Shown here: piece after piece, positions 74 to 50,359 of the stretch
Layout: each line of letters starts with the position of its first letter
Numbering within the stretch: the first letter of the stretch is position 1
Assembly: GCA_018669975.1 (NCBI GenBank)
Contig: JABHSK010000007.1
Span: 64,390 to 128,389, forward strand
Reading direction: 5' to 3'
Source: Candidatus Parcubacteria bacterium
Lineage (GTDB): Bacteria; Patescibacteriota; Patescibacteriia; UBA1558; GWA2-36-10
DNA: 64,000 nucleotides
The notes under the pieces: model-generated
Databases searched by the model: none
What the model saw: only the letters and a program-made list of their open reading frames with translations
What the model was told of the DNA's origin: nothing
Position numbers and translations under genes: made by a program

Positions 74-391
74 GTGGCTCTAGTGCCAAAGCTGGTTGTG
101 TATTATGAAATATGGAGTTATTCCGCGTATTCTTTAGTGTTAACCATGTTAATGTTGTCAGGAGTTATTGTTTTATTTTCTAAGTTAAAAAAATCTGAAA
201 GCGTATTTAAATTTCAACTTAAGTTAATTTTAGTAGCAGTTATTATGGGGACTATAGCTGGTAGTTATTTTAATTTATTTTTGATGTATTTTCATAATTG
301 TGATTATAACCATTTAGGTCCGTTGTTCACTTTATTAATGAATTTTGCAGTTTTTTATTTAATAATGTCTCCAAAAATTATTAAAGAATAA
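74..391 (+). CDS. small polytopic membrane protein; C-terminal motif (NHLGPLFTLLMNFAVFYLI) paralogous to the C-terminus of the next ORF; possible duplicated fragment of a 7TM sensor domain
   Basis: Hydrophobic ORF; shared C-terminal motif with ORF 394..1083 (NGLGPLFTVFMNAVVFYLIFS); no other homology recognised. Confidence 0.35.
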   Translation: MALVPKLVVYYEIWSYSAYSLVLTMLMLSGVIVLFSKLKKSESVFKFQLKLILVAVIMGTIAGSYFNLFLMYFHNCDYNHLGPLFTLLMNFAVFYLIMSPKIIKE

Positions 392-393
392 TT

Positions 394-1083
394 ATGAATC
401 CCAATTTACAAAATTATATTTTATTGATAGCAGGGCTGATTAACCTGATAATGAGTATTTTTATTATTTCCCGAGGTTGGAAGAACAAGGTAAATTTATA
501 TTTTAGCTTATTAACTTTTTTTAATTTTTTATGGGCTGGTGGGTTATTTATATCTAGGTCAACTGCTGATGTGGGTATAACCTCATTATTTAGTAGGAGT
601 ACGTATGTTTCAGCTATAGCAATTATAATTTCGCTCCTTTATTTTGTCATTTATTTTCCTTATAAGAGTAAAGAATTGCATAGTTGGCAAAAAATAATTA
701 TTTGGGTACCAGCCATGCTTTTGTCCGTTATAATTTTTACAAATTATTTTATAGTAGAATTTATAACCGCTTATAGTGAATATGAATTTATATCTGTATT
801 TTATAAACCAATATTTTTGATATACGTACTATATTTTGTATCATTAGCCTCATTCTCTATTTATTATTTGTTGGATAAATATAAGGGTGCTGTAATTACT
901 TTTAGAAAGCAGACAGGCTTATTATTAATAACCATAATTATTGGTTTAATATTTGGTGCATATTTTGATCTATTTTTGATATACATGGGAGATTTTAGGT
1001 TTAATGGTTTGGGTCCATTATTTACAGTTTTTATGAATGCAGTAGTATTTTATTTAATATTTTCATCTAAGAAAGAAAAGTAA
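394..1083 (+). CDS. standalone 7TM membrane protein resembling the N-terminal 7TM sensor domain of histidine kinases (HisKA_7TM-like), no kinase domain
   Basis: About 7 predicted TM helices; ISRGWKNKVNLYFSLLTFFNFLWAGGLF resembles FVKNRASLRNRIFGITSLMTAIWSIGFF at N-terminus of the HK at 7261; 2 nt after previous ORF. Confidence 0.5.
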   Translation: MNPNLQNYILLIAGLINLIMSIFIISRGWKNKVNLYFSLLTFFNFLWAGGLFISRSTADVGITSLFSRSTYVSAIAIIISLLYFVIYFPYKSKELHSWQKIIIWVPAMLLSVIIFTNYFIVEFITAYSEYEFISVFYKPIFLIYVLYFVSLASFSIYYLLDKYKGAVITFRKQTGLLLITIIIGLIFGAYFDLFLIYMGDFRFNGLGPLFTVFMNAVVFYLIFSSKKEK

Positions 1084-1091
1084 TTTAATTC

Positions 1092-2078
1092 ATGTCTAAG
1101 GAAAAGAAAAAAATTGTTGTATTGTTTGCCGGCGGCACTTGTTTACTTGATAAACAAGGGCATATTTTGACTATAAAAGAAAAAACAGATATAGATAGTT
1201 GGCTGCAACAAATGCCAGAATTAAATATTTTAGCTGACATCAAGCCTATTTTAATATCTGGAGAAGATGAGATCATCACGTCGCAGATTTGGGAAAAACT
1301 AGCCTTAACTATCTTGGATAATTTTGTTGAAGCAGACGGTTTTGTAGTAGTTACCAAGATTGATCAATTGATTGAAACCTCTTTGGCCTTAGATTTTATG
1401 CTGCAGCATTTTCAAAAAACTATCATTACCACTTCTTCTTATGTTAGTGGTACTAGTTTTGTGGATAAAAAAGAGACAATCAATACTCTTAAATCTAAAT
1501 TTGGTGGTTTAGGGCTAAGAGCTAACTTAATTAATGCTTTGCAGGTAGCCGATCAACCATTGCCTGGACCAGCTTTGATGTTTGGCTCTCGTTTGATTCC
1601 GGCTATTACAACAATTTATCAGCAACCAGGAGATATTAATTTTTTTAGTAGCCTAGATGGTGTATATTGGGGTAAGGTAGATTTTGGTGTTAATGTAAAA
1701 TCTGGTTTATCCTATTCTAGTCATAAGTCCAAGATTTATAGAAAAATAGCAGCAGACGTCCTGGTGCTAGACGATATACCAGGGGTACCTTGGAATTTTG
1801 CTAAAGAGCAAGCGGTAAAATATAAAGCTATATTTATCAAAGTAAAACCATTTCAAGCCCTAGATACCGACAAGCAAAAGCAAATTGGCCAGTGGAAACA
1901 GCCAGTAGTATTGTATAATCAACAAACTGTCATGGACGCTAAAGGTGTGGTGGCTATTTCAGGTTGTACAGAGCAAGCGGCTATAGTCAAAACTATGTGG
2001 GCAGTTGCTCATCATGCCAAATTGGCAGACTTCAAAGTAGTGATGCAGCAAAATATAATTGGAGAGTTCATAAATTAA
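1092..2078 (+). CDS. L-asparaginase-fold family protein (asparaginase/glutaminase-like)
   Basis: N-terminal VVLFAGGT motif similar to asparaginase TGGTIAG; DGFVVVTKIDQLIETSLALDFML resembles the hDGiVVtHGTDTmeETA region but without a clean HGTDT. Confidence 0.45.
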   Translation: MSKEKKKIVVLFAGGTCLLDKQGHILTIKEKTDIDSWLQQMPELNILADIKPILISGEDEIITSQIWEKLALTILDNFVEADGFVVVTKIDQLIETSLALDFMLQHFQKTIITTSSYVSGTSFVDKKETINTLKSKFGGLGLRANLINALQVADQPLPGPALMFGSRLIPAITTIYQQPGDINFFSSLDGVYWGKVDFGVNVKSGLSYSSHKSKIYRKIAADVLVLDDIPGVPWNFAKEQAVKYKAIFIKVKPFQALDTDKQKQIGQWKQPVVLYNQQTVMDAKGVVAISGCTEQAAIVKTMWAVAHHAKLADFKVVMQQNIIGEFIN

Positions 2079-2089
2079 TTTGGTCCAAC

Positions 2090-2674
2090 ATGAAGATTTA
2101 TTTTTATTCAAGTAATGCCGAACAGGGTAACGATAGTAAACAAATTGTTTCTTGGTTGAAGAAGTCGGGCGTAAAAGTCATAGACCATTCTTTTGTAAGT
2201 GCAAAATCTCAGTCTAGTAGCAGTGATCAATCTTTATCAAAGGTTGATGCTTTAGTTGTACATGGTAGTAAAATGGATGCTAAAAGTGGCTATTGGACAG
2301 CTCTGGCCTTGTCACAAAATAAAGATGTTCTATGTTTATTACCCCAAGGATCAAAGGTTGACGAAGCGCTTAGTGGTTTGCAGACAGATAGTAATTTTGC
2401 CAAAAAATTACATGTTATCTTCTATCAACCAGCAGATTTGCAGGAAAAAATATTAAATTTTTTACGTTTGTTGGATCAGGATAATCTACGAGACCTTTTT
2501 AATATTAAATATACTTTGAGGGTATCACGTAAAATTAATGATTATCTTAATTGGAAGGCGGATAAATTAAGTGTGCGTAAGGCAGACTGGCTTAGAGATA
2601 GGATTCAGGATATAATAAAGGATGATAGTGGTTATCAAAAACACCTGGCAGAGAAGTATAAATTAAACAAGTAG
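2090..2674 (+). CDS. hypothetical protein (start moved to ATG at 2090 immediately after stop of upstream gene)
   Basis: Track ORF 1964..2674 overlaps upstream CDS in another frame; internal Met (MKIYFYSS) at 2090 follows upstream TAA; no family recognised. Confidence 0.4.
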   Translation: MKIYFYSSNAEQGNDSKQIVSWLKKSGVKVIDHSFVSAKSQSSSSDQSLSKVDALVVHGSKMDAKSGYWTALALSQNKDVLCLLPQGSKVDEALSGLQTDSNFAKKLHVIFYQPADLQEKILNFLRLLDQDNLRDLFNIKYTLRVSRKINDYLNWKADKLSVRKADWLRDRIQDIIKDDSGYQKHLAEKYKLNK

Positions 2675-2676
2675 CT

Positions 2677-3480
2677 ATGGTAAAAAAAGAGTGGCGACGA
2701 GATTTTAAAGTTATTCCTGGAGTAGCTGATAGGGCTCAGCCTTTTGAGATTATTACTGGTGACAAGCATGAGACGTTAGTTGTTATGGTCCATGGTTTTA
2801 CTGGTTCACCCTATATAATGAAGCATTTAGCAGAATTCTTAGCAGAAGCTGGCTTAGATGTCAAAGCAATTCTTTTGGCTGGCCACGGTAGAAGTCCGCA
2901 GGCTCTAGGTAAGACCAACCACCAAGATTGGTATCAGTCAGTGGATGAAGTGGTGACTGCCAATATAGATAAATATGAAAATATATTTTTAGTGGGGCAT
3001 TCTTTTGGGGCTAACATGTCTATTCATGCTGCTATAAAGTATCCAAAGATAAAAGGAATAATATCTTTAGGGGTGTCTATTAGTATTATTGATGAAATAT
3101 GGATTAGACTACTTTTGCCTCTAGCTAGAATTTTTAAAAAGCAGTATAAAAAAAGGTGGATTAAAAAAGAAACCGCAGAACGTTTGCATGCCACTGGTAG
3201 GTATACACATATTCCAATTAGAAATATCGTTCAGTTCTATAGTTTTATAGATAATTTCACTAAAAAAGAAATCCCCAAACTTAAGTGTCCTATTTTGGTG
3301 ATGCATTCACGTGAAGATGAGGTGTCACATCCTCGTGGTTCAGAATTTTTATTTAAGAGATTAACGATGGAGGATAAAGAGTTGTTTATCTTGGACAAGA
3401 ATAATCATGGACTATTACACAAGACTAGGCGTGATTTTGTTTTTAATAAAATTGTAAGATTTATTGAAAAACGTAGCTAG
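2677..3480 (+). CDS. alpha/beta-fold hydrolase (carboxylesterase/thioesterase-like)
   Basis: GHSFG nucleophile elbow (GxSxG), HGFTGSP oxyanion region, conserved His near C-terminus (NHGLLH). Confidence 0.7.
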   Translation: MVKKEWRRDFKVIPGVADRAQPFEIITGDKHETLVVMVHGFTGSPYIMKHLAEFLAEAGLDVKAILLAGHGRSPQALGKTNHQDWYQSVDEVVTANIDKYENIFLVGHSFGANMSIHAAIKYPKIKGIISLGVSISIIDEIWIRLLLPLARIFKKQYKKRWIKKETAERLHATGRYTHIPIRNIVQFYSFIDNFTKKEIPKLKCPILVMHSREDEVSHPRGSEFLFKRLTMEDKELFILDKNNHGLLHKTRRDFVFNKIVRFIEKRS

Positions 3481-3523: not shown

Positions 3524-3552
3524 TTGTAGCACTGTTTTTTTTATGGTAAAAT
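3524..3552 (+). promoter_or_regulatory. putative sigma70-type promoter (TTGTAG-17-TGgTAAAAT) upstream of acyl-CoA ligase operon
   Basis: -35 TTGTAG 3524-3529, 17-nt spacer, extended -10 TGgTAAAAT ending 3552; 90-bp gap between genes. Confidence 0.3.
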
Positions 3553-3570
3553 TAAGCATATCTGTAATTT

Positions 3571-5277
3571 ATGCAAAAAACAGTTTTAGCTAAGTTTAGA
3601 AGAATTGTGGAGGGACATGGAGACAGCACAGCGCTGGCCTTTTTGGATAGAGGAAAATATAAAGAAATCAGCTATCAAGAGCTAGATCAGTACCGCAATA
3701 AGCTAGCTAGTTGGATGAAACAACATGGCTGGCAAAAGGGTGATAAATTTGCCTTGATGCTTGGCAATGGTCCAGAGTGGATTATAGCCGATTTAGCTGC
3801 CGCTAGTCTTGGTTTGGTAATAGTGCCAATCCATACAACATATAATGCAGAATATATTCGTAAGATAGTGGCGCATGCAGAGCTTAAATATTTGATTATT
3901 GATAGTGAATTATTTACTAAACATGAGGTAGTAATTGGTAGCTTGGATTTTCAGCAGATAGTTATTATCGGTCAGCATGATAAAGAGAACACTAAAGTTG
4001 TTTCCTGGCCAGACTTGGATAACATTGGTTCAGATACGGACGTAGAAGATGAGGTGTTAGAGGATGATTTACATACTATTATTTATACTTCTGGTACTAC
4101 TGGAGACCCCAAAGGTGTGATGTTGTCACATAAGAACTTAATGAGTAATGCAGAATCTGCCAAACATAATGTAACAATTACAGCAGAGGATAGATTCTTT
4201 TCTTTTTTACCCTTATCACATGCCTTTGAGCGTATGGCCGGCTATTATGCACCAATTATTACTGGGTCCAGCATTTATTTTGCCCAGAGTACCAAGACTA
4301 TTGTAGATGATATCAAATTAGCCAAGCCGACTATTATGTCTTCTGTGCCGCGTATTTTTGAAAGAATTTATGGAAAAGTTTTTGATAATATAGAAAATAG
4401 TAGTAAATTTAAGAAAAAATTGTTTTTCAAGGGGCTACAGCTAGCAGTACTGAAGCGTAAGGATTTGTTAAAATTTTGGCAGTGGGGTCAGTGGAAATTG
4501 TTGGATATGGTAGTTTTGAAAAAAGTACGGCAGGTATTGGGGGGAGATTTGCGCCTGGCTATATCGGGTGGGGCTTCGTTGGACCTCAAGGTGATTAAAT
4601 TTTTTGATAATTTAGGTGTCAAAGTTATCGAGGGTTATGGTATGACCGAGACATCGCCGATTATTGCAGTTAATAAAACAGATGATTATCGCTATGGCAC
4701 AGTAGGTTTTCCTGTTGATTGTAATGAAATAATTATTGATGAGCACAAGGAAATATTGGTTCGTGGAGAGAATGTTATGATGGGGTATTATAATAATCCA
4801 GACACGACTAAAGAAGTAATAGATAATAATGGTTGGCTACATACTGGTGACTTAGGGTTTATCGATAGAGAGGGCTTTCTTACTATTGTTGGTCGAGCTA
4901 AAGATGTAATAATATTATCAACTGGTAAGAATATATTTCCTGAGCAGATTGAGAATGTCCTTAATGAGAGTCGTTATATTACGCAAAGTATGATTTATGG
5001 CGATAAGGACAAGCATATCTCAGCTTTAATAGTGCCAAATTTTGAGCAAATTAAAAGATGGTGTGCTAAGTATGGGCTACCCTTTGATTTAACAAATGAG
5101 AAAATATTAAATTTTTATCAGGATAAGATTGGGAGTAGATTAAAACATTTTGCCAAAGTAGAGCAAATAGATAATTTTACTTTGATAGATGAAGAATTTA
5201 GTCAGGAAAATGGTTTGTTAACCCCAACTTTAAAATTAAAGAGAAAAAAAATATTAAGTAGATATAAAATAGTATAG
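3571..5277 (+). CDS. long-chain-fatty-acid--CoA ligase (AMP-binding enzyme)
   Basis: AMP-binding signature YTSGTTGDPKGVMLSH; GYGMTE; C-terminal GWLHTGDLG...LKLKRKK typical of FACS/FadD. Confidence 0.85.
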   Translation: MQKTVLAKFRRIVEGHGDSTALAFLDRGKYKEISYQELDQYRNKLASWMKQHGWQKGDKFALMLGNGPEWIIADLAAASLGLVIVPIHTTYNAEYIRKIVAHAELKYLIIDSELFTKHEVVIGSLDFQQIVIIGQHDKENTKVVSWPDLDNIGSDTDVEDEVLEDDLHTIIYTSGTTGDPKGVMLSHKNLMSNAESAKHNVTITAEDRFFSFLPLSHAFERMAGYYAPIITGSSIYFAQSTKTIVDDIKLAKPTIMSSVPRIFERIYGKVFDNIENSSKFKKKLFFKGLQLAVLKRKDLLKFWQWGQWKLLDMVVLKKVRQVLGGDLRLAISGGASLDLKVIKFFDNLGVKVIEGYGMTETSPIIAVNKTDDYRYGTVGFPVDCNEIIIDEHKEILVRGENVMMGYYNNPDTTKEVIDNNGWLHTGDLGFIDREGFLTIVGRAKDVIILSTGKNIFPEQIENVLNESRYITQSMIYGDKDKHISALIVPNFEQIKRWCAKYGLPFDLTNEKILNFYQDKIGSRLKHFAKVEQIDNFTLIDEEFSQENGLLTPTLKLKRKKILSRYKIV

Positions 5278-5278
5278 T

Positions 5279-6487
5279 ATGGAAGAAATTAGAAGAATAC
5301 TTGAATATTTGGAAAAACATAACCTCTATCCAGATATGAGAATTATTCAGGGTGGTGCAGAACCTGAGGTAATAGTAGACGGTAAAAAAGTATTGATGTT
5401 TTCATCTAATAATTATTTGGGCTTAGCCACTCATCCAAAAGTGGTTAATGCTGCTATAGAGGCAACCAAGAAATATGGTGTAGGTGCAGATGGTTCACGA
5501 TTGTTGTCAGGAAATTTACAGGTTCATAGGGACTTCGAAATTGCTATAGCAAAATTTAAAGGTGGCGAGGATGCTATAGTTTGGCCTACGGGATATTCTG
5601 CTAATTTGGGTGTTATTACTGCAATAATGAATCCCCCAAAAATTGGACCGTTGGATTTTTTTAGACGTAAGGGTGTTATTTTAAGTGACTCATTAAATCA
5701 TGCTAGTATTGTTGATGCGTGTAAAATGAGTGGTCAAAAAGTTGTTGTTTATAAACATTGTAATACTGCTGATCTAGAGAAAAAATTAAAAAAATATAGC
5801 AAGAGAAAGAAGTTGGTTGTAACTGATGGCGTATTTAGTATGGATGGTGATGTTGCACCTCTTGATAAAATCACCCTCTTATGTAAGCGGTATGATGCTA
5901 TGTTGATGATTGATGAGGCTCATTCAACTGGGATGCAGGGTGAAAACGGTCATGGTACAGCAGAGCGTTTTGGCTTGGAGGCAGTTAAGGATATTGATAT
6001 TATCCTTGGAACATGTAGTAAGGCACTGGCTGCTACAGGTGGTTTTGTTGTGGGTAGTAAAGAGTTAATTAAATATCTTCGAATTGCGAGTCGTTCATAT
6101 ATTTTTTCAACCGCTATGACTCCTGCAGCCTCAGCTTCATTAATAGCCTCATTAAAAATTATTGAGAGTGAACCAGGAATTAGAGAAAAAATGTGGCAGA
6201 ATACAGAGTGCCTTAGGGCGGGTTTTAATAGTTTAGGATTTGATACATTATCTAGTGAAACTCAAATAATTCCAGTTTTAATTGGTCCTGATGATAAGGC
6301 TGTAGAATTCTCTCGTCGATTATTTAAAAGAGGGGTATATGCACCATGTGTTCGTTGGCCAGCTGTTGAAAAGGGAAAAGCGCGGATAAGATTTACGGTT
6401 ATGGCAACACACACGGTTGAACAAATTAATTTCTTACTTAAGACATGTGAGTCGATTGGTAGTGAGTTGAATTTACTAGTGAAATGA
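5279..6487 (+). CDS. alpha-oxoamine synthase family PLP enzyme (8-amino-7-oxononanoate synthase / serine palmitoyltransferase / CqsA-like acyl-CoA:amino acid C-acyltransferase)
   Basis: Class-II aminotransferase fold; PLP-lysine motif GTCSKALAATGGFV; SDSLNHASI; FSMDGD; translationally coupled (1-nt gap) to acyl-CoA ligase. Confidence 0.8.
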   Translation: MEEIRRILEYLEKHNLYPDMRIIQGGAEPEVIVDGKKVLMFSSNNYLGLATHPKVVNAAIEATKKYGVGADGSRLLSGNLQVHRDFEIAIAKFKGGEDAIVWPTGYSANLGVITAIMNPPKIGPLDFFRRKGVILSDSLNHASIVDACKMSGQKVVVYKHCNTADLEKKLKKYSKRKKLVVTDGVFSMDGDVAPLDKITLLCKRYDAMLMIDEAHSTGMQGENGHGTAERFGLEAVKDIDIILGTCSKALAATGGFVVGSKELIKYLRIASRSYIFSTAMTPAASASLIASLKIIESEPGIREKMWQNTECLRAGFNSLGFDTLSSETQIIPVLIGPDDKAVEFSRRLFKRGVYAPCVRWPAVEKGKARIRFTVMATHTVEQINFLLKTCESIGSELNLLVK

Positions 6488-6504
6488 TTGTTGGTTAAAT
6501 AAAT

Positions 6505-7254
6505 ATGTTTATGTTAGACATCAATAATTATAATTATAATGGTAAAAATTTAAAATCACCGTTAACGTATAATAAACTTAAGGGGATAATGTTTTTTTTA
6601 CCAATTTCATATTCTCGTGCCTCTGATATAATAAGTGGGTTAGAGGTCGTGCCAATTCGTATTTTACCACAAAAAGCTTTGCTTGGTTTGACGGTTTTTG
6701 ATTTTATCGATTCTCCTGTGGGACCATATAGGGAGTTGGCGTTAACAATACCGGTAGCATTAAACAATTTGTATAAACCGAATATTATCCCTTTACTTTT
6801 TCCAAAAGCACTTAGTAAGCATTTTGCTTTATATACAATTATGTTAGGGATGAATACGTTACATGGGCAGAAACATGCAAGTGAGATTTTTGGATACCCT
6901 GTATATAAAAATTTGTTAGATATTGATTTTAATTTCGACGGTGGTGTTGTAAGTGTAAAAATTAAGGATAATGGTAGTGATGTGTTAATTTTTAAAATTA
7001 ACGTAAACAAAAATTTTAAGGAGCATGAAAGAGTTTATCAGACTATTTTTCGAGTTGGCGAGGATACTAGATTGGTAGATTTATCTGCTTCAACAGTTGA
7101 ATCTGCAACCTATATGGACCGTTTAAATAATCTTCAACTTGGTAAGTCTTCTATTGCAAATAAAATCAATAATCTAGAACCATCAATGTTTAGTTTGCAA
7201 ACAAGTTTTTATAAAAATGCCATTGAAACACTAACTAATTCAGAGAATATATAA
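6505..7254 (+). CDS. acetoacetate decarboxylase (ADC)-like family protein
   Basis: Motif IDSPVGPYRELALTIPV resembles ADC HDTSGLGCYTESGQAIPV (D-S-x-x-G-x-Y-x-E-x4-IPV); ~250 aa consistent with ADC beta-cone fold; recalled alignment, not computed. Confidence 0.4.
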   Translation: MFMLDINNYNYNGKNLKSPLTYNKLKGIMFFLPISYSRASDIISGLEVVPIRILPQKALLGLTVFDFIDSPVGPYRELALTIPVALNNLYKPNIIPLLFPKALSKHFALYTIMLGMNTLHGQKHASEIFGYPVYKNLLDIDFNFDGGVVSVKIKDNGSDVLIFKINVNKNFKEHERVYQTIFRVGEDTRLVDLSASTVESATYMDRLNNLQLGKSSIANKINNLEPSMFSLQTSFYKNAIETLTNSENI

Positions 7255-7260
7255 AATATA

Positions 7261-10092
7261 ATGGGAATTGTTGTTTATTTTAAAATCGCCTTCATACTTG
7301 GAAGTATCCTATCATTGGGAATTTGGTGGCTTTTATTTGTTAAAAATAGAGCAAGTTTACGTAATAGGATTTTTGGTATCACTTCTTTAATGACCGCCAT
7401 ATGGAGTATTGGTTTTTTTGGATTAACAAGTGCTAACTCGTTAATCTCAGCAAGTTTATCACGGTGGTTTATGGAGGCTGGTTCAATTTTTATACCTGCA
7501 CTCTGGTACCATTTTATTTTTACACATTTAAACTTAAATAAGGAGCATTTCAAGAGAATACGTTTAATGTATGCTATTAGCGCAGTATTATGGGTATTAA
7601 ATATTCTAGATTTATTTATACCGGGATTATTTTCTAGTGGCATGTATCAGAAGCTATTTTTTCAATATTATCCAGGCGGTGGATTAGGATATTATCTTTT
7701 CTTTATCTATTTTGCGTTTGTTGCAGTGTACACAGTTTTTTATTTGCACAGGTATTTAAAGAGAAGGTCAGGGATGCAAAAAGAACAAATACGTTTTATT
7801 CTATTAGCCGCTTATTTTGGATTTGGTGGTGGAGGAATGACATTTTTAGTAACCTTTGGAATAGAAATACCACCATTCGGAATTTTTTTCTTTGCATTTT
7901 ATCCTATTGTTATTGCTTATGCAATTGTGAAGTATAGATTAATGAATATCCGGCTACTTATTACGCGTAGTATTTTATACGCAGTTTTAGTTGGTGCAGT
8001 AGCTAGTTTTTTCGCCCTATCAGTATTTGTGGTTGGTAATACTATTGGTGGTAATACTCAAACAAGTAAAATATTTACATATATTATCACCTCACTTATA
8101 GTGGTGGTATTTTTAGAGCCAGTCAAACGCACTTGGGCCAAAGTGACGGACAAGATTTTTTACAAAGATAAGATTGATTATCAAGAAGTCTTACAAGAGG
8201 TTGGCCTCGTAGTGGCTAGGGAAATCGATTTAGAAAAATTATTACAAAATTCTATTATTCTTTTGGCCGAGAAGTTAAAGATAAAAGAGGTCTCTGTTCT
8301 AGTGCCGACAAATAATCATTTTAATTTATTGACTAGCTCTCAACAAGGTAAGAGCAATTCTTCTTTGTCACAGGAGTTTATAGATTATCTACATTCAAAT
8401 AAAGACTTTGTTATAATAGAAGAATTGAATAGAAATAATGATAATGTACAAGAAAAGAAGTTAAGGTGTAAAATAGAGAGGTTTATCAAAGAGGCGGAGA
8501 TGCTAAATGCGGAAATGGTTATTCCGGTTATAGAGCAGGGAGAGTTAACAGCGGTGTTCTTATTTACCTCTAAGAGCTCCGGAGATTTATACGGTGATCA
8601 AGATATAGATTTCTTTAGAGTATTAATGCCACAGATAGCTACAGCTATCGAAAAATCTAAGCTCTATGAAGAAGTTGAAGAATTTAACCGTGAACTGCAA
8701 GCTAAAGTAGGGGAGAGAACTAAGAGTTTGCAGGAGGTTAATGCAACTCTGGAGGAGCGCAATAGATTTTTGACTACTATGCAAGCAGTGACTAATATGA
8801 TTAGTCGTACGCTAGATTTAAAGAAAGTCAATCAGATGATAGCCAATAGTATTGCCAGTGAGTTGGGATACGTAGGTGGTATCTTGAGCTTTATTGATTT
8901 TGAAGCCAACGTGCTTAGGGTTGGTGCTATTACTGACAATAAGGCTAACAGAAAATTGCTGAGTTTACTACCACAAGATCCTCATGAATATGAAACTAAA
9001 TTAGAACCAGGATTTAATAAGGGAGCTCAGACAGTTTTATTAGGTAAAATTAATTTCTCTGATAGAATGTCTGACTTTTTGTCACCGCCAGTAGATAAAG
9101 AAATAATGGATAAAATACAAGAAGAAGCGGGTGTTAAAACTATGGTGGGTGTGCCGATATTTTCGGAAGCCAAAATCATTGGTATTATCCATTTTTTATT
9201 ACAGGTAAAGCAAAAAAGAATTTCTTCTATGGACATCGAGATGATGGGAGCGCTGACTAATCAGGTTGGTATCGTGTCTCGTAACCTTAAATTGTATAAT
9301 AATTTACAGAAAGCAAATCTAGACATGCAAGAAGCAAATGTCCGTTTGCGTGAGTTAGATAAAGCTAAATCAGAATTTCTTTCTATTGCTTCCCATCAAC
9401 TTAGAACACCAATTTCAGCCATTAAAGGTTATTTGTCCATGATTATCGATGGAGATTTTGGTAAGGTGTCGCCGAATATTACTAAGGTGATTAAAGACTT
9501 GTTTGAGAGTGCTTCTAGATTGGCTAGATTAATCAATATTTTATTGAATGTATCTAGAATTGAATCTGGTCGACTTAAATTAGAAAAAAAGCCTATTCAA
9601 ATCAGTGATATGATTGATAGTGTAATAGTTGAGTTGATAAACCAAGCTACTCAAAAAGGTTTGAAATTGACTTATAAAAAACCAAAAGGAAATATTCCAA
9701 AGATTTTTGCTGACAGTGATAAGTTGAGGGAGGTGGTGCTTAATTTGGTAGATAATGCTATCAAGTATACACCAAAAGGTAAGGTGGAAATATCTCTAGA
9801 GTTTAATAAAGAACACATGACCTTTATGACCAAGGATTCTGGTATTGGTATTGATCCTAAAGAGGTTAAGAGTTTGTTTAGAAAATTTGTACGTGGTTCA
9901 GGTGTAGCACAGATCCATACTGGTGGTTCAGGTTTAGGTCTATTCATTGCTCAAAAGATTATCAAAGAACACAATGGGAAAGTTTGGGCAGAGAGCGAGG
10001 GTACAGGTAAGGGTTCAACATTTAAGTTTGTAGTGCCTTTGTATGATGAGTCAATGTTGAGTGATGGTGTTGATGAACACAAAGATAAATAA
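7261..10092 (+). CDS. sensor histidine kinase: N-terminal 7TM domain, GAF-like region(s), HisKA (SHQLRTPISAIKGY), HATPase_c (DNAIKYT...GGSGLGLFIAQKII); no receiver domain
   Basis: Clear H-box, N, G1 (DSGIGI), G2 (GGSGLGL) boxes; 6-nt gap from upstream gene. Confidence 0.85.
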   Translation: MGIVVYFKIAFILGSILSLGIWWLLFVKNRASLRNRIFGITSLMTAIWSIGFFGLTSANSLISASLSRWFMEAGSIFIPALWYHFIFTHLNLNKEHFKRIRLMYAISAVLWVLNILDLFIPGLFSSGMYQKLFFQYYPGGGLGYYLFFIYFAFVAVYTVFYLHRYLKRRSGMQKEQIRFILLAAYFGFGGGGMTFLVTFGIEIPPFGIFFFAFYPIVIAYAIVKYRLMNIRLLITRSILYAVLVGAVASFFALSVFVVGNTIGGNTQTSKIFTYIITSLIVVVFLEPVKRTWAKVTDKIFYKDKIDYQEVLQEVGLVVAREIDLEKLLQNSIILLAEKLKIKEVSVLVPTNNHFNLLTSSQQGKSNSSLSQEFIDYLHSNKDFVIIEELNRNNDNVQEKKLRCKIERFIKEAEMLNAEMVIPVIEQGELTAVFLFTSKSSGDLYGDQDIDFFRVLMPQIATAIEKSKLYEEVEEFNRELQAKVGERTKSLQEVNATLEERNRFLTTMQAVTNMISRTLDLKKVNQMIANSIASELGYVGGILSFIDFEANVLRVGAITDNKANRKLLSLLPQDPHEYETKLEPGFNKGAQTVLLGKINFSDRMSDFLSPPVDKEIMDKIQEEAGVKTMVGVPIFSEAKIIGIIHFLLQVKQKRISSMDIEMMGALTNQVGIVSRNLKLYNNLQKANLDMQEANVRLRELDKAKSEFLSIASHQLRTPISAIKGYLSMIIDGDFGKVSPNITKVIKDLFESASRLARLINILLNVSRIESGRLKLEKKPIQISDMIDSVIVELINQATQKGLKLTYKKPKGNIPKIFADSDKLREVVLNLVDNAIKYTPKGKVEISLEFNKEHMTFMTKDSGIGIDPKEVKSLFRKFVRGSGVAQIHTGGSGLGLFIAQKIIKEHNGKVWAESEGTGKGSTFKFVVPLYDESMLSDGVDEHKDK

Positions 10093-10093
10093 T

Positions 10094-10504
10094 ATGATAA
10101 AAAGAGTTAGAGCAGTTATTATAAAAGATAACAAAATACTTTTAATAAAAAGGGTGAAGCCCGAAGATAAATATTGGGCTGCACCAGGAGGAGGTGTTGA
10201 TCCAGGTGAGTCTGATAAACAGGCTTTGATCAGGGAGTGTCAGGAAGAGTTGGGCGTAAACGTAGAAGTATGTGAGTTATTTTTAGATATTATATCTGAA
10301 AAGCCAGCTACCAAAGGTCAGTTGGAATTTTTTTATGAATGCAAAATATTGTCTGGGAAGGTGGGTACAGGAGATGGTCCTGAGTATCAACCAGACTCAG
10401 GTTACATAGGCAGCTATCAGCCTGAATGGAGGGCTTTAGATGAATTATCATCTTTAGAATTACGCCCCCGACAACTTAAGGAAAAATTACTTATACACAA
10501 ATAA
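10094..10504 (+). CDS. NUDIX hydrolase
   Basis: Nudix box GGGVDPGESDKQALIRECQEELGV (Gx5Ex7REUxEExGU); start chosen at ATG 10094 overlapping HK stop. Confidence 0.8.
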   Translation: MIKRVRAVIIKDNKILLIKRVKPEDKYWAAPGGGVDPGESDKQALIRECQEELGVNVEVCELFLDIISEKPATKGQLEFFYECKILSGKVGTGDGPEYQPDSGYIGSYQPEWRALDELSSLELRPRQLKEKLLIHK

Positions 10505-10506
10505 TT

Positions 10507-10989
10507 TTGACAAAGATATTTATTTTTTTAACAGAGACTATTAAGCGTTTCTATCCTGAAAAAAGAGGTGATATACAAATTTCATTTGCTGGTGGAGACA
10601 CAGAGGAGCAAAGAAGAAGTATAGAATCTATTCATAAGATGTATAATCCGTTAGCGACTTCTGATAACCCAATATATAAAGAAAAAGCTGTAGTTATTTG
10701 TGACAAACCAATAGATCAGAAAGCAGAGAGTAAGTTAGAGGAATTTAAAAAAGGCTATCCTTATCTAGTAGAAAATAATCAATTATTTGAATTAGAAGCT
10801 ACTAGCTTAGAAGAATATTATCCAGAGGAGTGGAAGAAGACTTATGCAGAATCTAGGGAACTTGGTAAAAAAGGTGAAAAGACCACTTATGCCGAAGAAG
10901 TTGCAAGTCAGATAACAAAAGAACAGTTTGAGAAGGAAATGCCGATTTTGCATGAAGCATTAAACAGATGTTGGGAACTTTCATATTAG
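10507..10989 (+). CDS. hypothetical protein (TTG/alternative start in track)
   Basis: ORF only; acidic, no recognised motifs. Confidence 0.35.
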   Translation: MTKIFIFLTETIKRFYPEKRGDIQISFAGGDTEEQRRSIESIHKMYNPLATSDNPIYKEKAVVICDKPIDQKAESKLEEFKKGYPYLVENNQLFELEATSLEEYYPEEWKKTYAESRELGKKGEKTTYAEEVASQITKEQFEKEMPILHEALNRCWELSY

Positions 10990-11065
10990 GGTATGAAAGC
11001 TTTAATCAGTCAAACTAGCTCTTTAAGGTTATTATAAATCTTTTTAATCTGAGATTGAAGAATTT

Positions 11066-11287
11066 GTGCATAGAATAATGGATAGTCATAAAAGTGCTAT
11101 TGATGTTTTTGGTATCAGACAAAGGCCGGGAAAGGATATCAAGTCTTTAGGATCTATATTACAAAATATTAAGAATCCCAGAAAATATAAAGGGTATAAG
11201 AACCTTTTTGAGATAAAAGATATAGCTGCTATAACAGTCATTTGTCATTTTGCAGTAGTTTGTATAAAAGAAAAGGATAAAATATAA
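11066..11287 (+). pseudogene. truncated RelA/SpoT-type (small alarmone synthetase-like) nucleotidyltransferase fragment, 73 aa, GTG start
   Basis: GIRQRPGKDIKSLGSILQNIK...YKNLFEIKDIAAITVICHF matches the RelA_SpoT synthetase core (hisGRvKsiySi..K......DiaGiRvvc) but ORF ends ~20 aa later, lacking the C-terminal half of the domain; in-frame stop 9 nt upstream. Confidence 0.35.
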
Positions 11288-11303
11288 TCTCTAAGCCTAT
11301 AAA

Positions 11304-11334
11304 ATAACCACCAAATCTGGTGGTTATTTTTATT
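11304..11334 (+). terminator. rho-independent terminator (ATAACCACCA-aatc-TGGTGGTTAT + T-run)
   Basis: Perfect 10-bp inverted repeat followed by TTTTTATTT. Confidence 0.7.
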
Positions 11335-20771: not shown

Positions 20772-20912
20772 ATCAATCAAATATTGATACCGCAGACAGT
20801 GGGTTATTTAGCTAGTATTAGCTAAGTTATAAATCCTACCGAGGTGCCAAAAAGTAATTTTTAGGTAGTCTGCGGCTCTAATTCGCAGATTTTTTGTTTA
20901 AATAACAAATAT
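20772..20912 (+). ncRNA. ribosomal protein L10 (rplJ) leader-like structured 5'UTR with attenuator hairpin
   Basis: Long-range stem CCGCAGAC (20789-20796)/GTCTGCGG (20868-20875) enclosing ~70 nt, followed by hairpin TCTGCG-N9-CGCAGA + T6 immediately upstream of rplJ start. Confidence 0.5.
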
Positions 20913-21903: not shown

Positions 21904-21937
21904 ACACCCTCGCAATGCGAGGGTGTTTTTGTTTTTA
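21904..21937. terminator. bidirectional intrinsic terminator (ACACCCTCGCAaTGCGAGGGTGT + T-run) shared by rplL (+) and the convergent minus-strand gene
   Basis: 11-bp inverted repeat followed by TTTTTGTTTTT; A-rich on other side. Confidence 0.75.
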
Positions 21938-25215: not shown

Positions 25216-25647
25216 ATGGCAAAGAATAATTTTGGATTTACTCTAGTAGAGTTATTAGTGGTTATAGCTATCATTGGCATTTTATCTTCTGTAGCTGTAT
25301 CGCAATTAAACATAGCTCGTAAAAAAGCTATGGTAGCAGCCGTAGAGGAATCCCTGGTTTCTTTAAAGTCAGCTGTTATACTTTGTTATGAGGAGGGTTT
25401 TTATTTAGCGGCTGATAATAGTGCTAGTAATATGTGTGAGGGATCAGAAAATCCTATAGCAGGGCTTAAGATATGTGGGGCTATTTTTGCGCCAACTTGG
25501 CCACATTTGCCAGATGGTTGGAGTTATGTTGATAATTGTTTAGGTGATCTTGGTCGTATGGCTATTTATGAGTTTCGTTATGCGGCTATGGACACCGACG
25601 GTAATAGAGTGGATTGTAATCACAATGGTTGTATTACTACACCTTAA
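25216..25647 (+). CDS. type IV pilin / pseudopilin (prepilin-type N-terminal cleavage/methylation domain)
   Basis: GFTLVELLVVIAIIGIL class III signal peptide; C-terminal Cys pair. Confidence 0.8.
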   Translation: MAKNNFGFTLVELLVVIAIIGILSSVAVSQLNIARKKAMVAAVEESLVSLKSAVILCYEEGFYLAADNSASNMCEGSENPIAGLKICGAIFAPTWPHLPDGWSYVDNCLGDLGRMAIYEFRYAAMDTDGNRVDCNHNGCITTP

Positions 25648-41425: not shown

Positions 41426-41428
41426 TCT

Positions 41429-49299: not shown

Positions 49300-49318
49300 A
49301 ATAAAATAATTTAAAAAT

Positions 49319-50353: not shown

Positions 50354-50359
50354 TTTTTT

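What the first reader, a model, noticed from the sequence alone, without database searches (positions are those of the whole stretch)
3524..11334. Acyl-CoA ligase + alpha-oxoamine synthase + ADC-like enzyme co-transcribed with an orphan 7TM/GAF sensor kinase: candidate lipid-derived signal (CAI-1/LAI-1-like) or aminolipid module
Seen in sequence: one promoter-to-terminator unit (3524 to hairpin 11304-11334). Its tightly spaced + strand genes are an AMP-binding fatty-acyl-CoA ligase, an AOS-family PLP enzyme (1-nt gap), an acetoacetate-decarboxylase-like protein, a 943-aa 7TM/GAF/HisKA/HATPase_c kinase with no receiver domain (6-nt gap), and a NUDIX hydrolase. No response regulator is in the window. 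Established knowledge: AOS-family enzymes use acyl-CoA substrates both in sphingoid-base/aminolipid synthesis (SPT, capnine CapB) and in alpha-hydroxyketone autoinducer synthesis (Vibrio CqsA, Legionella LqsA), where they lie next to a multi-TM sensor kinase (CqsS/LqsS). Inference: the ligase would activate a fatty acid and the AOS condense it with an amino acid. The ADC-like enzyme could modify the 2-amino-3-keto product. The adjacent 7TM kinase, whose domain has two standalone paralogs at 74-1083, may sense the product. This would be unusual for a reduced genome lacking fatty-acid synthesis.
Basis: partly seen in the sequence, partly recalled or inferred. Interest (0 to 1): 0.7.

Follow-up and report, generated by a model that had tools for sequence, protein, structure and literature searches.

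The report
Aminoketone synthase wired to membrane sensor kinase
In this tiny-genome Parcubacteria (candidate phyla radiation) bacterium and many relatives, a PLP enzyme publicly labelled "biotin synthesis BioF" sits next to a membrane-embedded sensor kinase, usually with a lysine-less decarboxylase-fold protein between them, which looks like a cassette that makes and senses a fatty-acid-derived amine and has not been described for these bacteria.

Summary
The source is a Candidatus Parcubacteria MAG, where NCBI calls the AOS "8-amino-7-oxononanoate synthase" and its neighbours "hypothetical".

The pairing is strongly conserved. In 17 of 19 distinct CPR loci, the AOS lies beside a HisKA_7TM histidine kinase.

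The AOS is neither CqsA/LqsA nor a convincing BioF, KBL or SPT. It belongs to a CPR clade marked by an 11-15-residue insertion.

The "ADC-like" protein has the acetoacetate-decarboxylase fold (AF2 pLDDT 93; Foldseek finds only ADC-superfamily structures). Its whole AOS-linked subfamily has lost the Schiff-base lysine and gained conserved His124, Tyr236 and Glu241.

The kinase's 7TM sensor domain comes in two deeply divergent types. These track whether a tailoring gene lies between AOS and kinase. The kinase core and the AOS do not split this way. In a Spirochaetes MAG the same 7TM type is fused to GAF and HD-GYP next to an AOS.

Best reading: scavenged fatty acid is turned into a long-chain α-aminoketone, tailored, then sensed in the membrane. 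This is analogous to CqsA/CqsS, not homologous. A structural aminolipid with a homeostatic sensor remains a serious rival. No biochemistry exists.

The parts
74..391 (+). C-terminal part of a standalone HisKA_7TM membrane protein (227 aa in full; cut by the window start)
   Evidence: PF16927 weak hit. The full gene is seen in L001. It is 48.5% identical to the next paralog.
394..1083 (+). Standalone HisKA_7TM membrane protein (229 aa, about 7 TM helices, no output domain)
   Evidence: PF16927 at 49.9 bits, above the gathering score of 28.6. TM prediction. Standalone 7TM genes recur next to the AOS in L007, L152, L154, L159 and L160.
1092..2078 (+). Divergent type-I asparaginase-family protein (possible amidase or lysophospholipase-type hydrolase; function inferred only)
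   Evidence: PF00710 at 64 bits. PDB type-I asparaginases at E = 6e-9. An ortholog sits in the same position in L154 (30% identity).
2090..2674 (+). Conserved 194-aa protein of unknown function
   Evidence: No Pfam, NCBIfam or PDB hit. A 37%-identical ortholog sits in the same position in L154.
2677..3480 (+). Alpha/beta-hydrolase (Hydrolase_4, the lysophospholipase/monoglyceride-lipase-type family); proposed fatty-acid-releasing step
   Evidence: PF12146 at 97.6 bits. An orthologous hydrolase-ligase pair occurs near the AOS in L159 and L161 (28% identity).
3571..5277 (+). AMP-forming long-chain-type fatty acyl-CoA ligase
   Evidence: PF00501 at 278 bits. Full-length alignment to the FadD11 model (290 bits, below its cutoff). 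NCBI name: long-chain fatty acid--CoA ligase. Orthologs lie next to or near the AOS in L013, L154, L159 and L161.
5279..6487 (+). Alpha-oxoamine synthase (PLP-dependent acyl-CoA:amino-acid C-acyltransferase) of a CPR-specific clade with an 11-15-residue insertion (about residues 117-131, NPPKIGPLDFFRRKG)
   Evidence: NHASI, DEAH and SKA motifs conserved. (insertion present in all CPR members, absent from all references). (at least 120 CPR clusters at 60% identity or more).
6505..7254 (+). Lysine-less acetoacetate-decarboxylase-fold protein (tailoring enzyme or ligand-handling protein); soluble, no TM helices
   Evidence: AF2 pLDDT 92.9 and pTM 0.90. Foldseek finds only ADC-superfamily structures, E down to 2e-10. 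45 of 60 profile hits match PF06314. The K115/K116 position reads V133/Y134. The subfamily signature is Y22, E77, H124, Y131, T180, Y236 and E241.
7261..10092 (+). Sensor histidine kinase: HisKA_7TM membrane domain (type A, about 9 TM helices in residues 1-290, short loops), two GAF regions, HisKA (H712 in SHQLRTP), HATPase_c; no receiver domain
   Evidence: The 7TM type tracks the tailoring genes.
10094..10504 (+). NUDIX hydrolase (MutT-like); membership of the module is uncertain
   Evidence: PF00293 at 61 bits. 1-nt gap after the kinase. A NUDIX gene also lies immediately upstream of the AOS in L161. Absent from most other loci.
10507..10989 (+). 160-aa ORF of unknown function, co-directional, 2-nt gap
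   Evidence: No family hits. Found only in same-species contigs L001-L005.
11066..11287 (+). Small ORF (69-73 aa) of unknown function, last before the hairpin
   Evidence: no family hits.
11301..11330 (+). Intrinsic-terminator-like hairpin (13-bp stem, 4-nt loop) followed by a U-rich tail
   Evidence: dG -16.1 kcal/mol and z = -5.72; 0 of 200 shuffles fold as well.

Best explanation
This is one copy of a module that is widespread in Patescibacteria/CPR. Its invariant core is an alpha-oxoamine synthase (AOS) of a CPR-specific clade, encoded next to a membrane-embedded HisKA_7TM sensor histidine kinase.

The most likely mechanism runs as follows. Fatty acids are released from scavenged lipids by the alpha/beta-hydrolase (2677-3480), and perhaps by the asparaginase-family hydrolase. 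The ligase (3571-5277) activates them to acyl-CoA. The AOS (5279-6487) condenses them with an amino acid to give a hydrophobic long-chain alpha-aminoketone. The lysine-less ADC-fold protein (6505-7254) converts or handles this reactive product without the Schiff-base chemistry of true decarboxylases. The product partitions into the membrane and is recognised by the 7TM domain of the kinase (7261-10092). The kinase autophosphorylates on H712 and signals to a receiver encoded elsewhere.

The cassette therefore works like a synthase/tailoring-enzyme/receptor set. It is a functional analogue of CqsA/CqsS and LqsA/LqsS, not a member of those families.

Shown: domain identities, fold, loss of the catalytic lysine, conserved synteny, and co-variation of sensor type with tailoring genes.

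Inferred: substrates, product, the sensing relationship, and whether the product acts between cells or only reports the cell's own membrane or lipid state.
For: 1. The AOS and the HisKA_7TM kinase are adjacent, or separated only by one or two tailoring genes, in 16 of 19 distinct CPR loci. In a 17th (L162) about 1.8 kb with three small genes separates the AOS from the ADC-like-kinase pair. AOS identity across these loci is 40-84%.

2. In a non-CPR Spirochaetes MAG (L017), an AOS is followed by the same 7TM domain fused to GAF and HD-GYP instead of a kinase. hmmsearch gives E = 5.9e-31, and the type-B profile scores 144.8 bits. The link is therefore to the sensor domain, not to the output domain.

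3. The 7TM domains split into two types: 11 ADC-positive loci against 4 ADC-negative loci, bootstrap 100%. Identity is 0.42 and 0.38 within types and 0.20 between them. The kinase cores and the AOS enzymes of the same loci do not split (bootstrap 0%; between-group identity equals within-group identity).

4. Out-of-sample tests. L162 has an ADC-like gene 2 nt upstream of a type-A kinase (282 bits against 32). L163 has a formyltransferase-like gene in the same slot and a type-A-like kinase (144 bits against 20).

5. The genes interposed between AOS and kinase vary: lysine-less ADC fold, ICMT-like methyltransferase, Formyl_trans_N protein, radical SAM. This is the pattern of product diversification.

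6. ADC-positive loci L009 and L010 carry a second kinase whose 7TM is type-B-like.

7. The hydrolase-ligase pair recurs near the AOS.

8. The kinase has short loops and no extracytoplasmic domain, and keeps the H, N, G1 and G2 boxes.

9. In CqsA/CqsS, an AOS product made from acyl-CoA is itself sensed by a multi-TM kinase, and most lqsA/lqsS-type clusters contain only the synthase and the sensor (PMC3376566).
Against: - There is no biochemical, genetic or expression evidence for any member.
- The AOS scores far below the CqsA/LqsA model (209 bits against 428). Its closest solved relatives are a broad-specificity Thermus AOS/KBL and a Sphingobacterium SPT. That fits lipid synthesis equally well.
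- PlsC-type acyltransferases sit upstream of the AOS in L007, L010 and L012. A distant ADC-like member (L031) lies in a pure lipid-assembly cluster without a kinase: YegS-type lipid kinase, PlsC/OlsA-like acyltransferase and PIP-synthase-like transferase.
- The AOS is unusually conserved (60-84% identity across CPR classes), which is more typical of a housekeeping enzyme than of an autoinducer synthase.
- Sensor kinases also sit beside lipid-modifying genes for homeostasis (DesK/Des; my own knowledge).
- The association of sensor type with the ADC-like gene is not perfect: L163 is type-A-like without an ADC-like gene.
- The sample is 17 loci, chosen through the AOS and ADC-like searches, and the loci are not phylogenetically independent.
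- No response regulator lies in the window.
Confidence: 0.45

Rival explanations
1. The module makes a structural aminolipid under homeostatic control. The AOS acts as a serine-palmitoyltransferase-like enzyme and makes a sphingoid-type long-chain base from scavenged fatty acids. The ADC-fold protein, the PlsC-like acyltransferase and the ICMT-like methyltransferase elaborate it into a membrane lipid. The 7TM kinase is a DesK-like intramembrane sensor of membrane state that tunes the pathway.
For: - Sphingobacterium SPT is as close as any solved relative (301 bits against 306 for Thermus AOS).
- In the NJ tree the CPR clade lies nearest the SPT/Bacteroidia group and away from KBL and E. coli BioF (no support values).
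- PlsC-type acyltransferases sit upstream of the AOS in L007, L010 and L012.
- L031 reads AOS, ADC-like, YegS-type lipid kinase (159 bits, above the cutoff of 118.65), PlsC/OlsA-like acyltransferase, PIP-synthase-like CDP-alcohol transferase.
- ICMT/LmtA-like membrane methyltransferases occur in L030 and L154.
- The AOS is very highly conserved.
- A hydrolase-ligase pair suits lipid salvage in organisms thought to scavenge lipids.
Against: - No 3-ketosphinganine reductase (SDR) or ceramide-synthase-like gene accompanies the AOS in any CPR locus. The Bacteroidia homolog L019 has the classical PAP2-AOS-SDR layout.
- Many loci contain only 7TM, AOS and kinase genes (L160).
- The SPT models are not met (394 bits against 640; 330 against 500; 273 against 670).
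- A homeostatic sensor would not be expected to change its sensor-domain type with the interposed tailoring gene while its kinase core does not.
- It would also not be expected to reappear with an HD-GYP output next to an AOS in another phylum.
Confidence: 0.3
2. The public annotation is right and this is ordinary housekeeping. The AOS is BioF (KAPA synthase, with the ligase acting as a pimeloyl-CoA synthetase) or KBL, and its adjacency to the kinase has no functional meaning.
For: - TIGR00858 (bioF) scores 426.6 bits against a cutoff of 426.45.
- NCBI and JGI name the whole clade 8-amino-7-oxononanoate synthase.
- A ligase next to BioF recalls BioW-BioF (my own knowledge).
- The closest solved structure is the bifunctional Thermus AOS/KBL.
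Against: - The bioF score exceeds the cutoff by only 0.15 bits.
- No bioA, bioB or bioD gene, and no tdh gene, lies in the 64-kb window or in any of the roughly 19 loci examined.
- The KBL models are not met (393 bits against 460; 338 against 493).
- The ligase is of the long-chain FadD type, not BioW.
- The clade carries a specific insertion absent from BioF, KBL and Thermus AOS.
- Adjacency to a 7TM sensor in 17 of 19 loci, and in a Spirochaetes MAG, is not explained by chance.
Confidence: 0.07
3. The 7TM proteins are partners of the enzyme, not ligand sensors. HisKA_7TM domains, both standalone and kinase-fused, would anchor or regulate the soluble AOS and ADC-fold proteins at the membrane, in the way ORMDL regulates eukaryotic SPT, or would export the product. 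The kinase would report flux or occupancy, not a diffusible signal.
For: - One to three standalone HisKA_7TM genes without any output domain flank the AOS in the window, L007, L152, L154, L159 and L160.
- The ADC-like gene stays 2 nt from the kinase even when the AOS is 1.8 kb away (L162), which is compatible with a protein-protein pair.
- The CPR AOS has a clade-specific surface insertion that could be a docking element (inference).
Against: - No interaction evidence exists, and no structure prediction of the 7TM domain or of complexes was possible here.
- The domain is classed as a sensor module of kinases in Pfam.
- The standalone copies are heterogeneous in type.
Confidence: 0.13

Closest known systems
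CqsA/CqsS (Vibrio) and LqsA/LqsS (Legionella) alpha-hydroxyketone quorum-sensing pairs
   Same: An AOS-family PLP enzyme that uses acyl-CoA is encoded next to a multi-TM histidine kinase with no extracytoplasmic domain. In those systems the amino-ketone product itself is a ligand. Most homologous clusters contain just the synthase and the sensor (PMC3376566).
   Different: - The AOS is not in the CqsA/LqsA subfamily (209 bits against a cutoff of 428; 108 bits to CqsA structures against 301-306 for others).
- The sensor domain is HisKA_7TM (PF16927) with about 9 TM helices, often followed by GAF.
- The kinase is not a hybrid kinase with a receiver.
- There are extra elements: a lysine-less ADC-fold protein, standalone 7TM paralogs, and a hydrolase-ligase feeder.
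- The host is a CPR bacterium.
Bacterial serine palmitoyltransferase clusters (Bacteroidota SPT + 3-ketosphinganine reductase; Caulobacter/Sphingomonas ACP + acyl-ACP synthetase + SPT; the latter from my own knowledge)
   Same: An AOS-family enzyme close in sequence to Sphingobacterium SPT (301 bits). It is paired with an acyl-activating enzyme. Some relatives have lipid acyltransferase, lipid kinase and head-group transferase neighbours.
   Different: - All SPT equivalog models are failed.
- No reductase or ceramide synthase is adjacent, in contrast with L019.
- A sensor kinase is the constant neighbour.
- The clade has a specific insertion.
Thermus thermophilus AOS/KBL (PDB 7poa, 8s1y) and the TIGR01825 BioF/Kbl-related subfamily
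   Same: It is the best sequence match among solved structures (304-306 bits, near full length). All PLP-binding and catalytic motifs are shared.
   Different: TIGR01825 scores 424 bits against a cutoff of 535. The Thermus enzyme lacks the insertion. The Thermus enzyme's genomic context was not examined here.
Acetoacetate decarboxylase superfamily (CaADC 3bh2, CvADC 3bgt, MppR 4jmc, Sbi00515 4zbo/6eej, Swit_4259 5upb)
   Same: The same beta-cone fold (Foldseek probability 1.0, TM 0.51-0.63) and the same length. The Tyr-x-Glu motif equivalent to CaADC Glu76 and the GYP motif are conserved.
   Different: The Schiff-base lysine (CaADC K115, shown as a covalent or Schiff-base adduct in the 4zbt and 6eej entry titles) is replaced by V, I, T, H, L, F, R or Q in all 42 AOS-linked members, while 30 of 35 canonical hits keep it. 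H124, Y236 and E241 are gained. Pfam PF06314 is below threshold for the window protein (17 bits against 29.8).
DesK-type intramembrane-sensing kinases next to a lipid-modifying gene (my own knowledge)
   Same: A kinase with only TM helices as its input, encoded beside a lipid-related enzyme gene.
   Different: The TM domain family is different. Here the sensor type co-varies with tailoring enzymes and recurs with a non-kinase output.

Membership tests
Alpha-oxoamine synthase family (PLP fold-type I, class II aminotransferase-like) | PF00155 domain with the PLP-binding Lys, the stacking His, the Asp-x-x-His motif and the C-terminal Arg | tested here: met
   PF00155 at 221.7 bits. Alignment to 7poa, 3a2b and 3tqx shows NHASI, IDEAHS, GTCSKAL and KARIRF conserved.
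BioF (8-amino-7-oxononanoate synthase) | Score above the TIGR00858 equivalog cutoff | tested here: inconclusive
   426.6 bits against a cutoff of 426.45, a margin of 0.15 bits. TIGR01825 scores almost the same (424.1).
BioF (8-amino-7-oxononanoate synthase) | Genomic association with bioA, bioD and bioB (or bioW) | tested here: not met
   None in the 64-kb window or in about 19 related loci.
KBL (glycine C-acetyltransferase) | Score above the NF005394 or TIGR01822 cutoff; adjacency to tdh | tested here: not met
   392.9 bits against 460 and 337.6 against 493. No tdh gene in any locus. In the NJ tree the CPR clade lies outside the KBL clade.
Serine palmitoyltransferase (bacterial) | Score above the NF047600, NF047599 or NF047603 cutoff | tested here: not met
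   393.9 bits against 640; 330.3 against 500; 273.3 against 670.
Serine palmitoyltransferase (bacterial) | Use of L-serine plus a long-chain acyl thioester; sphingolipid product | not testable with these tools
   Needs an enzyme assay and lipidomics.
CqsA/LqsA autoinducer synthase | Score above the NF005526 (PRK07179) cutoff, or closest similarity to CqsA structures | tested here: not met
   209.4 bits against 428. CqsA chains score 108 bits against 301-306 for Thermus AOS and Sphingobacterium SPT.
CqsA/CqsS-like synthase-receptor pair (functional class) | The AOS gene is adjacent to a multi-TM sensor kinase, conserved across relatives | tested here: met
   17 of 19 CPR loci, plus a Spirochaetes AOS/7TM-GAF-HD-GYP pair.
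CqsA/CqsS-like synthase-receptor pair (functional class) | The kinase responds to the synthase product | not testable with these tools
   Only indirect support: the sensor-domain type co-varies with the tailoring genes.
Acetoacetate decarboxylase family (PF06314) | Sequence score above the Pfam gathering threshold | tested here: not met
   17 bits against 29.8 for the window protein and 26 bits for the L009 ortholog. 45 of 60 profile-search hits do match PF06314, the best at E = 1.3e-22.
Acetoacetate decarboxylase family (PF06314) | ADC beta-cone fold | tested here: met
   AF2 pLDDT 92.9 and pTM 0.90. All 22 Foldseek hits at E <= 1e-3 are ADC-superfamily structures.
Acetoacetate decarboxylase family (PF06314) | Catalytic Schiff-base lysine (CaADC K115) with the neighbouring K116 | tested here: not met
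   CaADC YPKK aligns to the window's GYPVY (V133, Y134). No member of the 42-sequence AOS-linked subfamily has Lys there.
HisKA_7TM sensor histidine kinase | PF16927 N-terminal 7TM domain plus HisKA with the phospho-acceptor His plus HATPase_c | tested here: met
   43.4 bits (cutoff 28.6), 58 bits (26.9) and 96 bits (26.4). H712 lies in SHQLRTP, and the N, G1 and G2 boxes are present.
Long-chain fatty acyl-CoA ligase (FadD-type) | AMP-binding domain; equivalog-level match | tested here: inconclusive
   PF00501 at 278 bits is met. All NCBIfam equivalogs are below cutoff; the best are PRK06187 at 292 bits against 476 and FadD11 at 290 against 950, the latter aligned over the full length. Chain-length preference was not tested.

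The most novel reading that the evidence does not exclude
Patescibacteria/CPR bacteria possess a phylum-wide, self-encoded chemical signalling system. A dedicated AOS clade makes fatty-acid-derived alpha-aminoketone signals. Interchangeable tailoring enzymes diversify them: a neofunctionalised lysine-less ADC fold, a formyltransferase-like protein, an ICMT-like methyltransferase. Matching variants of the HisKA_7TM domain read them out through kinase or HD-GYP outputs. This would be the first cell-cell or symbiont-host signalling circuit defined for these ultra-small episymbionts. It would also assign a ligand class to the orphan HisKA_7TM sensor domain and a new chemistry to the ADC fold.
Probability: 0.3. 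Interest if true: 0.85.

Novelty: new variant of a known kind. Interest (0 to 1): 0.7.

Why it matters
CPR/Patescibacteria make up a large share of bacterial diversity. They have minimal genomes and mostly live attached to hosts, yet almost nothing is known about how they sense or signal.

Here a gene annotated throughout the group as a biotin enzyme is instead the constant partner of an orphan membrane sensor domain. If the product is a signal, this is a testable quorum-sensing or host-sensing system for CPR. If it is a lipid, it is a route to sphingoid-type lipids from scavenged fatty acids in organisms that are thought to lack lipid synthesis.

Either way, the finding does four things:
- It corrects a systematic misannotation.
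- It proposes a ligand class for HisKA_7TM.
- It defines a lysine-less branch of the acetoacetate-decarboxylase fold that needs a new mechanism.
- It gives four small soluble or membrane proteins that can be expressed and assayed directly.

Tried and rejected
- A single-sequence AF2 run on the ADC-like protein failed (pLDDT 33). It was replaced by a run on a 77-sequence alignment.
- A GTDB genome scan with close-family peptide patterns found no relative. Alignments A3 and A5 were too diverse for the metagenome scan.
It yielded 120 loci, of which only L048 and L058 encode family members.
- The afdb50 fold library was unavailable.
- The promoter scan was uninformative (59 sites against 53 expected) and the terminator scan missed the real hairpin.
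- The first bootstrap used a Kimura correction that broke at p > 0.85 and gave spuriously low support. It was redone with p-distances.
- Literature searches found nothing relevant for CPR/Patescibacteria with SPT, BioF, CqsA or LqsA, for AOS with ADC, or for the ADC superfamily. The two HisKA_7TM papers are domain censuses.
- I considered and rejected CqsA/LqsA membership, canonical ADC decarboxylase chemistry, and KBL/tdh threonine catabolism. BioF is held at low probability.
- The NUDIX gene as a CoA pyrophosphatase of the pathway was not pursued. It is MutT-like and recurs in only one other locus.
- PDB sequence searches for the 194-aa ORF found nothing.

Full report
**What is there**

The window has about 35% GC, strong GC skew, and nearly all genes on the + strand. 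It matches contigs of a Candidatus Parcubacteria MAG exactly, with a longest contig of 844 kb. In that record NCBI names the ligase "long-chain fatty acid--CoA ligase" and the AOS "8-amino-7-oxononanoate synthase". The ADC-like protein, the kinase, the 7TM proteins, the asparaginase-like protein and the 194-aa ORF are all "hypothetical".

- ligase, 3571-5277
- AOS, 5279-6487 (1-nt gap)
- ADC-like, 6505-7254
- kinase, 7261-10092 (6-nt gap)
- NUDIX, 10094-10504 (1-nt gap)
- two small unannotated ORFs
- a strong hairpin with a U-tail at 11301-11330 (dG -16.1 kcal/mol, z = -5.7)

Pfam and NCBIfam confirm the domain calls. No receiver domain was found in the window.

The proposed promoter at 3524 cannot be supported. 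The genes upstream are two standalone HisKA_7TM proteins, an asparaginase-family protein, a 194-aa unknown and an alpha/beta-hydrolase. They are co-directional with gaps of 2-11 nt, and they recur in the same order in relatives. The unit is therefore wider than the finding's coordinates.

**The AOS**

The catalytic motifs are intact: NHASI, DEAH, the PLP lysine in SKA, and the C-terminal RIR.

Classification is ambiguous at the equivalog level:

| Model | Score (bits) | Cutoff (bits) |
|---|---|---|
| bioF, TIGR00858 | 426.6 | 426.45 |
| TIGR01825 | 424 | 535 |
| CFB-type SPT | 394 | 640 |
| KBL | 393 | 460 |
| CqsA/LqsA | 209 | 428 |

Among solved structures, Thermus AOS/KBL (306 bits) and Sphingobacterium SPT (301 bits) tie. 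CqsA scores 108 bits.

More than 120 protein clusters at 60-84% identity exist, all from CPR, and all named BioF where a name is given.

All CPR members carry an 11-15-residue insertion between the TGYSAN and SDxLNHASI motifs. This includes a divergent member at 41% identity (L154). The insertion is absent from E. coli BioF and Kbl, Coxiella KBL, Thermus AOS, Sphingobacterium SPT and 15 non-CPR homologs.

An NJ tree without support values places the clade outside KBL, far from E. coli BioF, and nearest the SPT/Bacteroidia group.

No biotin genes or tdh occur in the window or in any related locus examined.

**The ADC-like protein**

Direct Pfam evidence is sub-threshold at 17 bits. Other evidence is stronger:
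- A profile search of 1.84 billion representatives found a small family: 191 hits at E <= 1e-3 and 47 at E <= 1e-10.
- Of the 60 aligned hits, 45 match PF06314, the best at E = 1.3e-22.
- AlphaFold2 with a 77-sequence alignment gave pLDDT 92.9 and pTM 0.90.
- All 22 significant Foldseek hits in the PDB are ADC-superfamily structures: MppR, Legionella, Chromobacterium and Clostridium ADC, Swit_4259 and Sbi00515, with TM 0.51-0.63.

So the fold call is right.

The HMMER alignment to CaADC places the Schiff-base lysine pair (YPKK) opposite the window's GYPVY. Across 77 sequences the split is clean:
- All 42 AOS-linked members have a non-lysine residue there (V, I, T, H, L, F, R or Q). They share H124, Y236 and E241 in addition to Y22 and E77.
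- Of 35 canonical ADC-superfamily hits, 30 keep the lysine. These lack H124 and E241.

This is a neofunctionalised, lysine-less branch. Canonical decarboxylase or aldolase chemistry is excluded. The conserved polar residues argue for a different catalytic or ligand-handling role.

**Conservation of the arrangement**

I examined loci reached in two ways: through the ADC-like protein and through the AOS. I compared them by tblastn and HMMs.

- **AOS and kinase.** In 17 of 19 distinct CPR loci the AOS is accompanied by a HisKA_7TM kinase. It is either directly adjacent (L013, L159, L160, L161) or has tailoring genes interposed.
- **ADC-like gene.** Where upstream sequence exists, it lies immediately downstream of an AOS in all loci except L010 and L162, where other genes intervene. 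In L162 the AOS is 1.8 kb away but the ADC-like gene remains 2 nt from the kinase.
- **Other interposed genes.** An ICMT/LmtA-like membrane methyltransferase (L030, L154). A Formyl_trans_N protein (L163). A radical-SAM/SPASM enzyme plus an unknown (L010).
- **Upstream of the AOS.** Either the long-chain ligase, often with the alpha/beta-hydrolase (window, L013, L154, L159, L161), or a PlsC/Aas-type acyltransferase (L007, L010, L012).
- **Standalone 7TM genes.** They flank six loci.
- **Downstream of the kinase.** Single-domain receivers follow in L007 and L161. Second kinases follow in L009 and L010.
- **Exceptions.** L011 has the AOS alone. L031 reads AOS, a distant ADC-like member, a YegS-type lipid kinase, an acyltransferase and a PIP-synthase-like transferase, with no kinase.

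**Evidence that the sensor domain is tied to the pathway product**

1. The 7TM domains of 15 kinases fall into two types that separate perfectly by presence (11) or absence (4) of the ADC-like gene. Bootstrap support is 100%. Identity is 0.42 and 0.38 within types and 0.20 between types. The kinase cores of the same proteins, and the AOS enzymes of the same loci, show no such split: bootstrap is 0%, and between-group identity (0.40 for the kinase cores, 0.63 for the AOS) equals within-group identity.

2. Out-of-sample tests. L162, which has an ADC-like gene, carries a type-A kinase (282 bits against 32). L163 has no ADC-like gene but has a formyltransferase-like gene in the same slot. Its kinase is type-A-like (144 bits against 20). 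The association is therefore with a tailoring step, and it is not perfect with the ADC-like gene itself. As a table this is 12/0 against 1/4. My own hand calculation gives Fisher p of about 0.002, and the loci are not phylogenetically independent.

3. The second kinases of the ADC-positive loci L009 and L010 are type-B-like.

4. In a Spirochaetes MAG (L017), an AOS without the CPR insertion is followed by a type-B 7TM domain (144.8 bits) fused to GAF and HD-GYP instead of a kinase. In a Desantisbacteria MAG (L015), the AOS is fused to a PilZ domain.

The constant partner of the AOS is therefore the 7TM sensor module, whatever its output domain.

The window kinase has about nine TM helices with short loops, two GAF regions, H712 in SHQLRTP, and intact N, G1 and G2 boxes.

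**Interpretation**

The most economical reading is a cassette of synthase, tailoring enzyme and receptor. The hydrolase releases fatty acid. The ligase makes acyl-CoA. The AOS makes a hydrophobic alpha-aminoketone. A variable tailoring step follows. The 7TM domain detects the product within the membrane.

This works like CqsA/CqsS and LqsA/LqsS. In those systems an AOS product made from acyl-CoA is the ligand of a multi-TM kinase, and most clusters contain only the synthase and the sensor (PMC3376566). Membership of those families was tested and is not met.

What the lysine-less ADC fold does is unknown. One inference is that it controls the fate of the reactive aminoketone, by deamination or hydrolysis toward a diketone or hydroxyketone, by cyclodimerisation, or by sequestration.

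The main rival is a structural sphingoid-type aminolipid made from scavenged fatty acids, with a DesK-like homeostatic sensor. Supporting it are the PlsC-type neighbours, the L031 lipid-assembly cluster, the closeness to SPT and the very high conservation of the AOS. Against it are the absence of reductase and ceramide-synthase partners (compare L019: PAP2-AOS-SDR), the loci that contain only 7TM, AOS and kinase genes, and the domain-specific co-variation.

BioF or KBL housekeeping is unlikely. A fourth possibility is that the 7TM proteins are membrane partners or exporters of the enzymes, not ligand sensors.

**Novelty and limits**

No paper in the searchable library links CPR/Patescibacteria with SPT, BioF, CqsA or LqsA, or links an AOS with an ADC-fold protein. 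I rate this a new variant of a known kind: an AOS plus a membrane sensor kinase.

The limits are as follows:
- There is no experimental evidence.
- The locus sample is small and not independent.
- The trees are NJ trees.
- The type-A and type-B HMMs were built from the same loci they first classified. Only L017, L162, L163 and the second kinases are out-of-sample.
- MAG taxonomic labels may be unreliable.
- The whole genome could not be inspected for biotin, fatty-acid or receiver genes.

Noticed in passing
L017:99-3275 (Spirochaetes MAG JAHITG010000436.1): A non-CPR AOS (39% identity, no CPR insertion) is followed by a 652-aa protein made of a HisKA_7TM-like domain (type B, 144.8 bits), GAF and HD_5 (HD-GYP). 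The AOS-7TM link therefore exists outside CPR with a c-di-GMP-type output.
   Followed up: partly
L015:9551-11113 (Desantisbacteria MAG): The AOS is fused to an N-terminal PilZ domain (residues 3-76), suggesting c-di-GMP control of an AOS enzyme.
   Followed up: no
L031:1-4634 (GCA_041486755.1): The cluster reads AOS, distant lysine-less ADC-like protein (223 aa), YegS/BmrU-type lipid kinase, 580-aa PlsC/OlsA-like acyltransferase and PIP-synthase-like CDP-alcohol transferase, with no kinase. It looks like a phospho-aminolipid or inositol-lipid assembly line.
   Followed up: partly
L163:8203-9039: A Formyl_trans_N-domain protein occupies the slot between the AOS and the 7TM kinase where the ADC-like gene usually sits. 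This hints at N-formylation of the amine product.
   Followed up: partly
L010:11337-13462 and L014:13674-14348: A radical-SAM/SPASM enzyme (anaerobic-sulfatase-maturase-like) and a 261-aa unknown are inserted between the AOS and the ADC-like gene in L010. The 261-aa unknown recurs after the kinase in L014 (34% identity).
   Followed up: no
window 5279-6487, residues ~117-131: There is a CPR-clade-specific insertion (NPPKIGPLDFFRRKG) in the AOS between the TGYSAN and SDSLNHASI motifs. Its structural position and role are unknown.
   Followed up: partly
window 10094-10504 and L161:8446-8946: A NUDIX hydrolase is adjacent to the module in two otherwise different layouts: after the kinase in the window, before the AOS in L161. 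The two share only weak similarity (36% over 55 aa).
   Followed up: partly
window 14258-15853 and 15854-17431: Two tandem cofactor-independent phosphoglycerate mutase (iPGM) genes follow PGK and enolase.
   Followed up: no
window 35377-35481 and 35537-36547: A SAM riboswitch (65.4 bits) lies directly upstream of SAM synthetase (MetK).
   Followed up: no
window 40079-42760: An OLD-family ATPase/TOPRIM nuclease (PADLOC Old 125 bits, GajA 104 bits) lies next to a DUF6938 protein. This is a possible anti-phage defence pair. No GajB-like helicase was seen.
   Followed up: partly
window 21935-24076 (-) and 37150-39255 (-): Two of the few minus-strand genes encode large proteins (713 and 701 aa) with no significant Pfam or PADLOC match.
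   Followed up: no
L160:17367-18626 (Buchananbacteria-type contig): A ketoacyl-synthase (FabB/F-type) gene lies 7 kb from the AOS-kinase pair. Not all CPR carrying the module lack every fatty-acid-synthesis gene.
   Followed up: no
window 20772-20905; 25216-25647; 48601-54752: A ribosomal L10 leader, a type-IV-pilin-like protein (N_methyl motif), and a cluster of five glycosyltransferases with a GDP-mannose-dehydratase-like epimerase. All ordinary.
   Followed up: no
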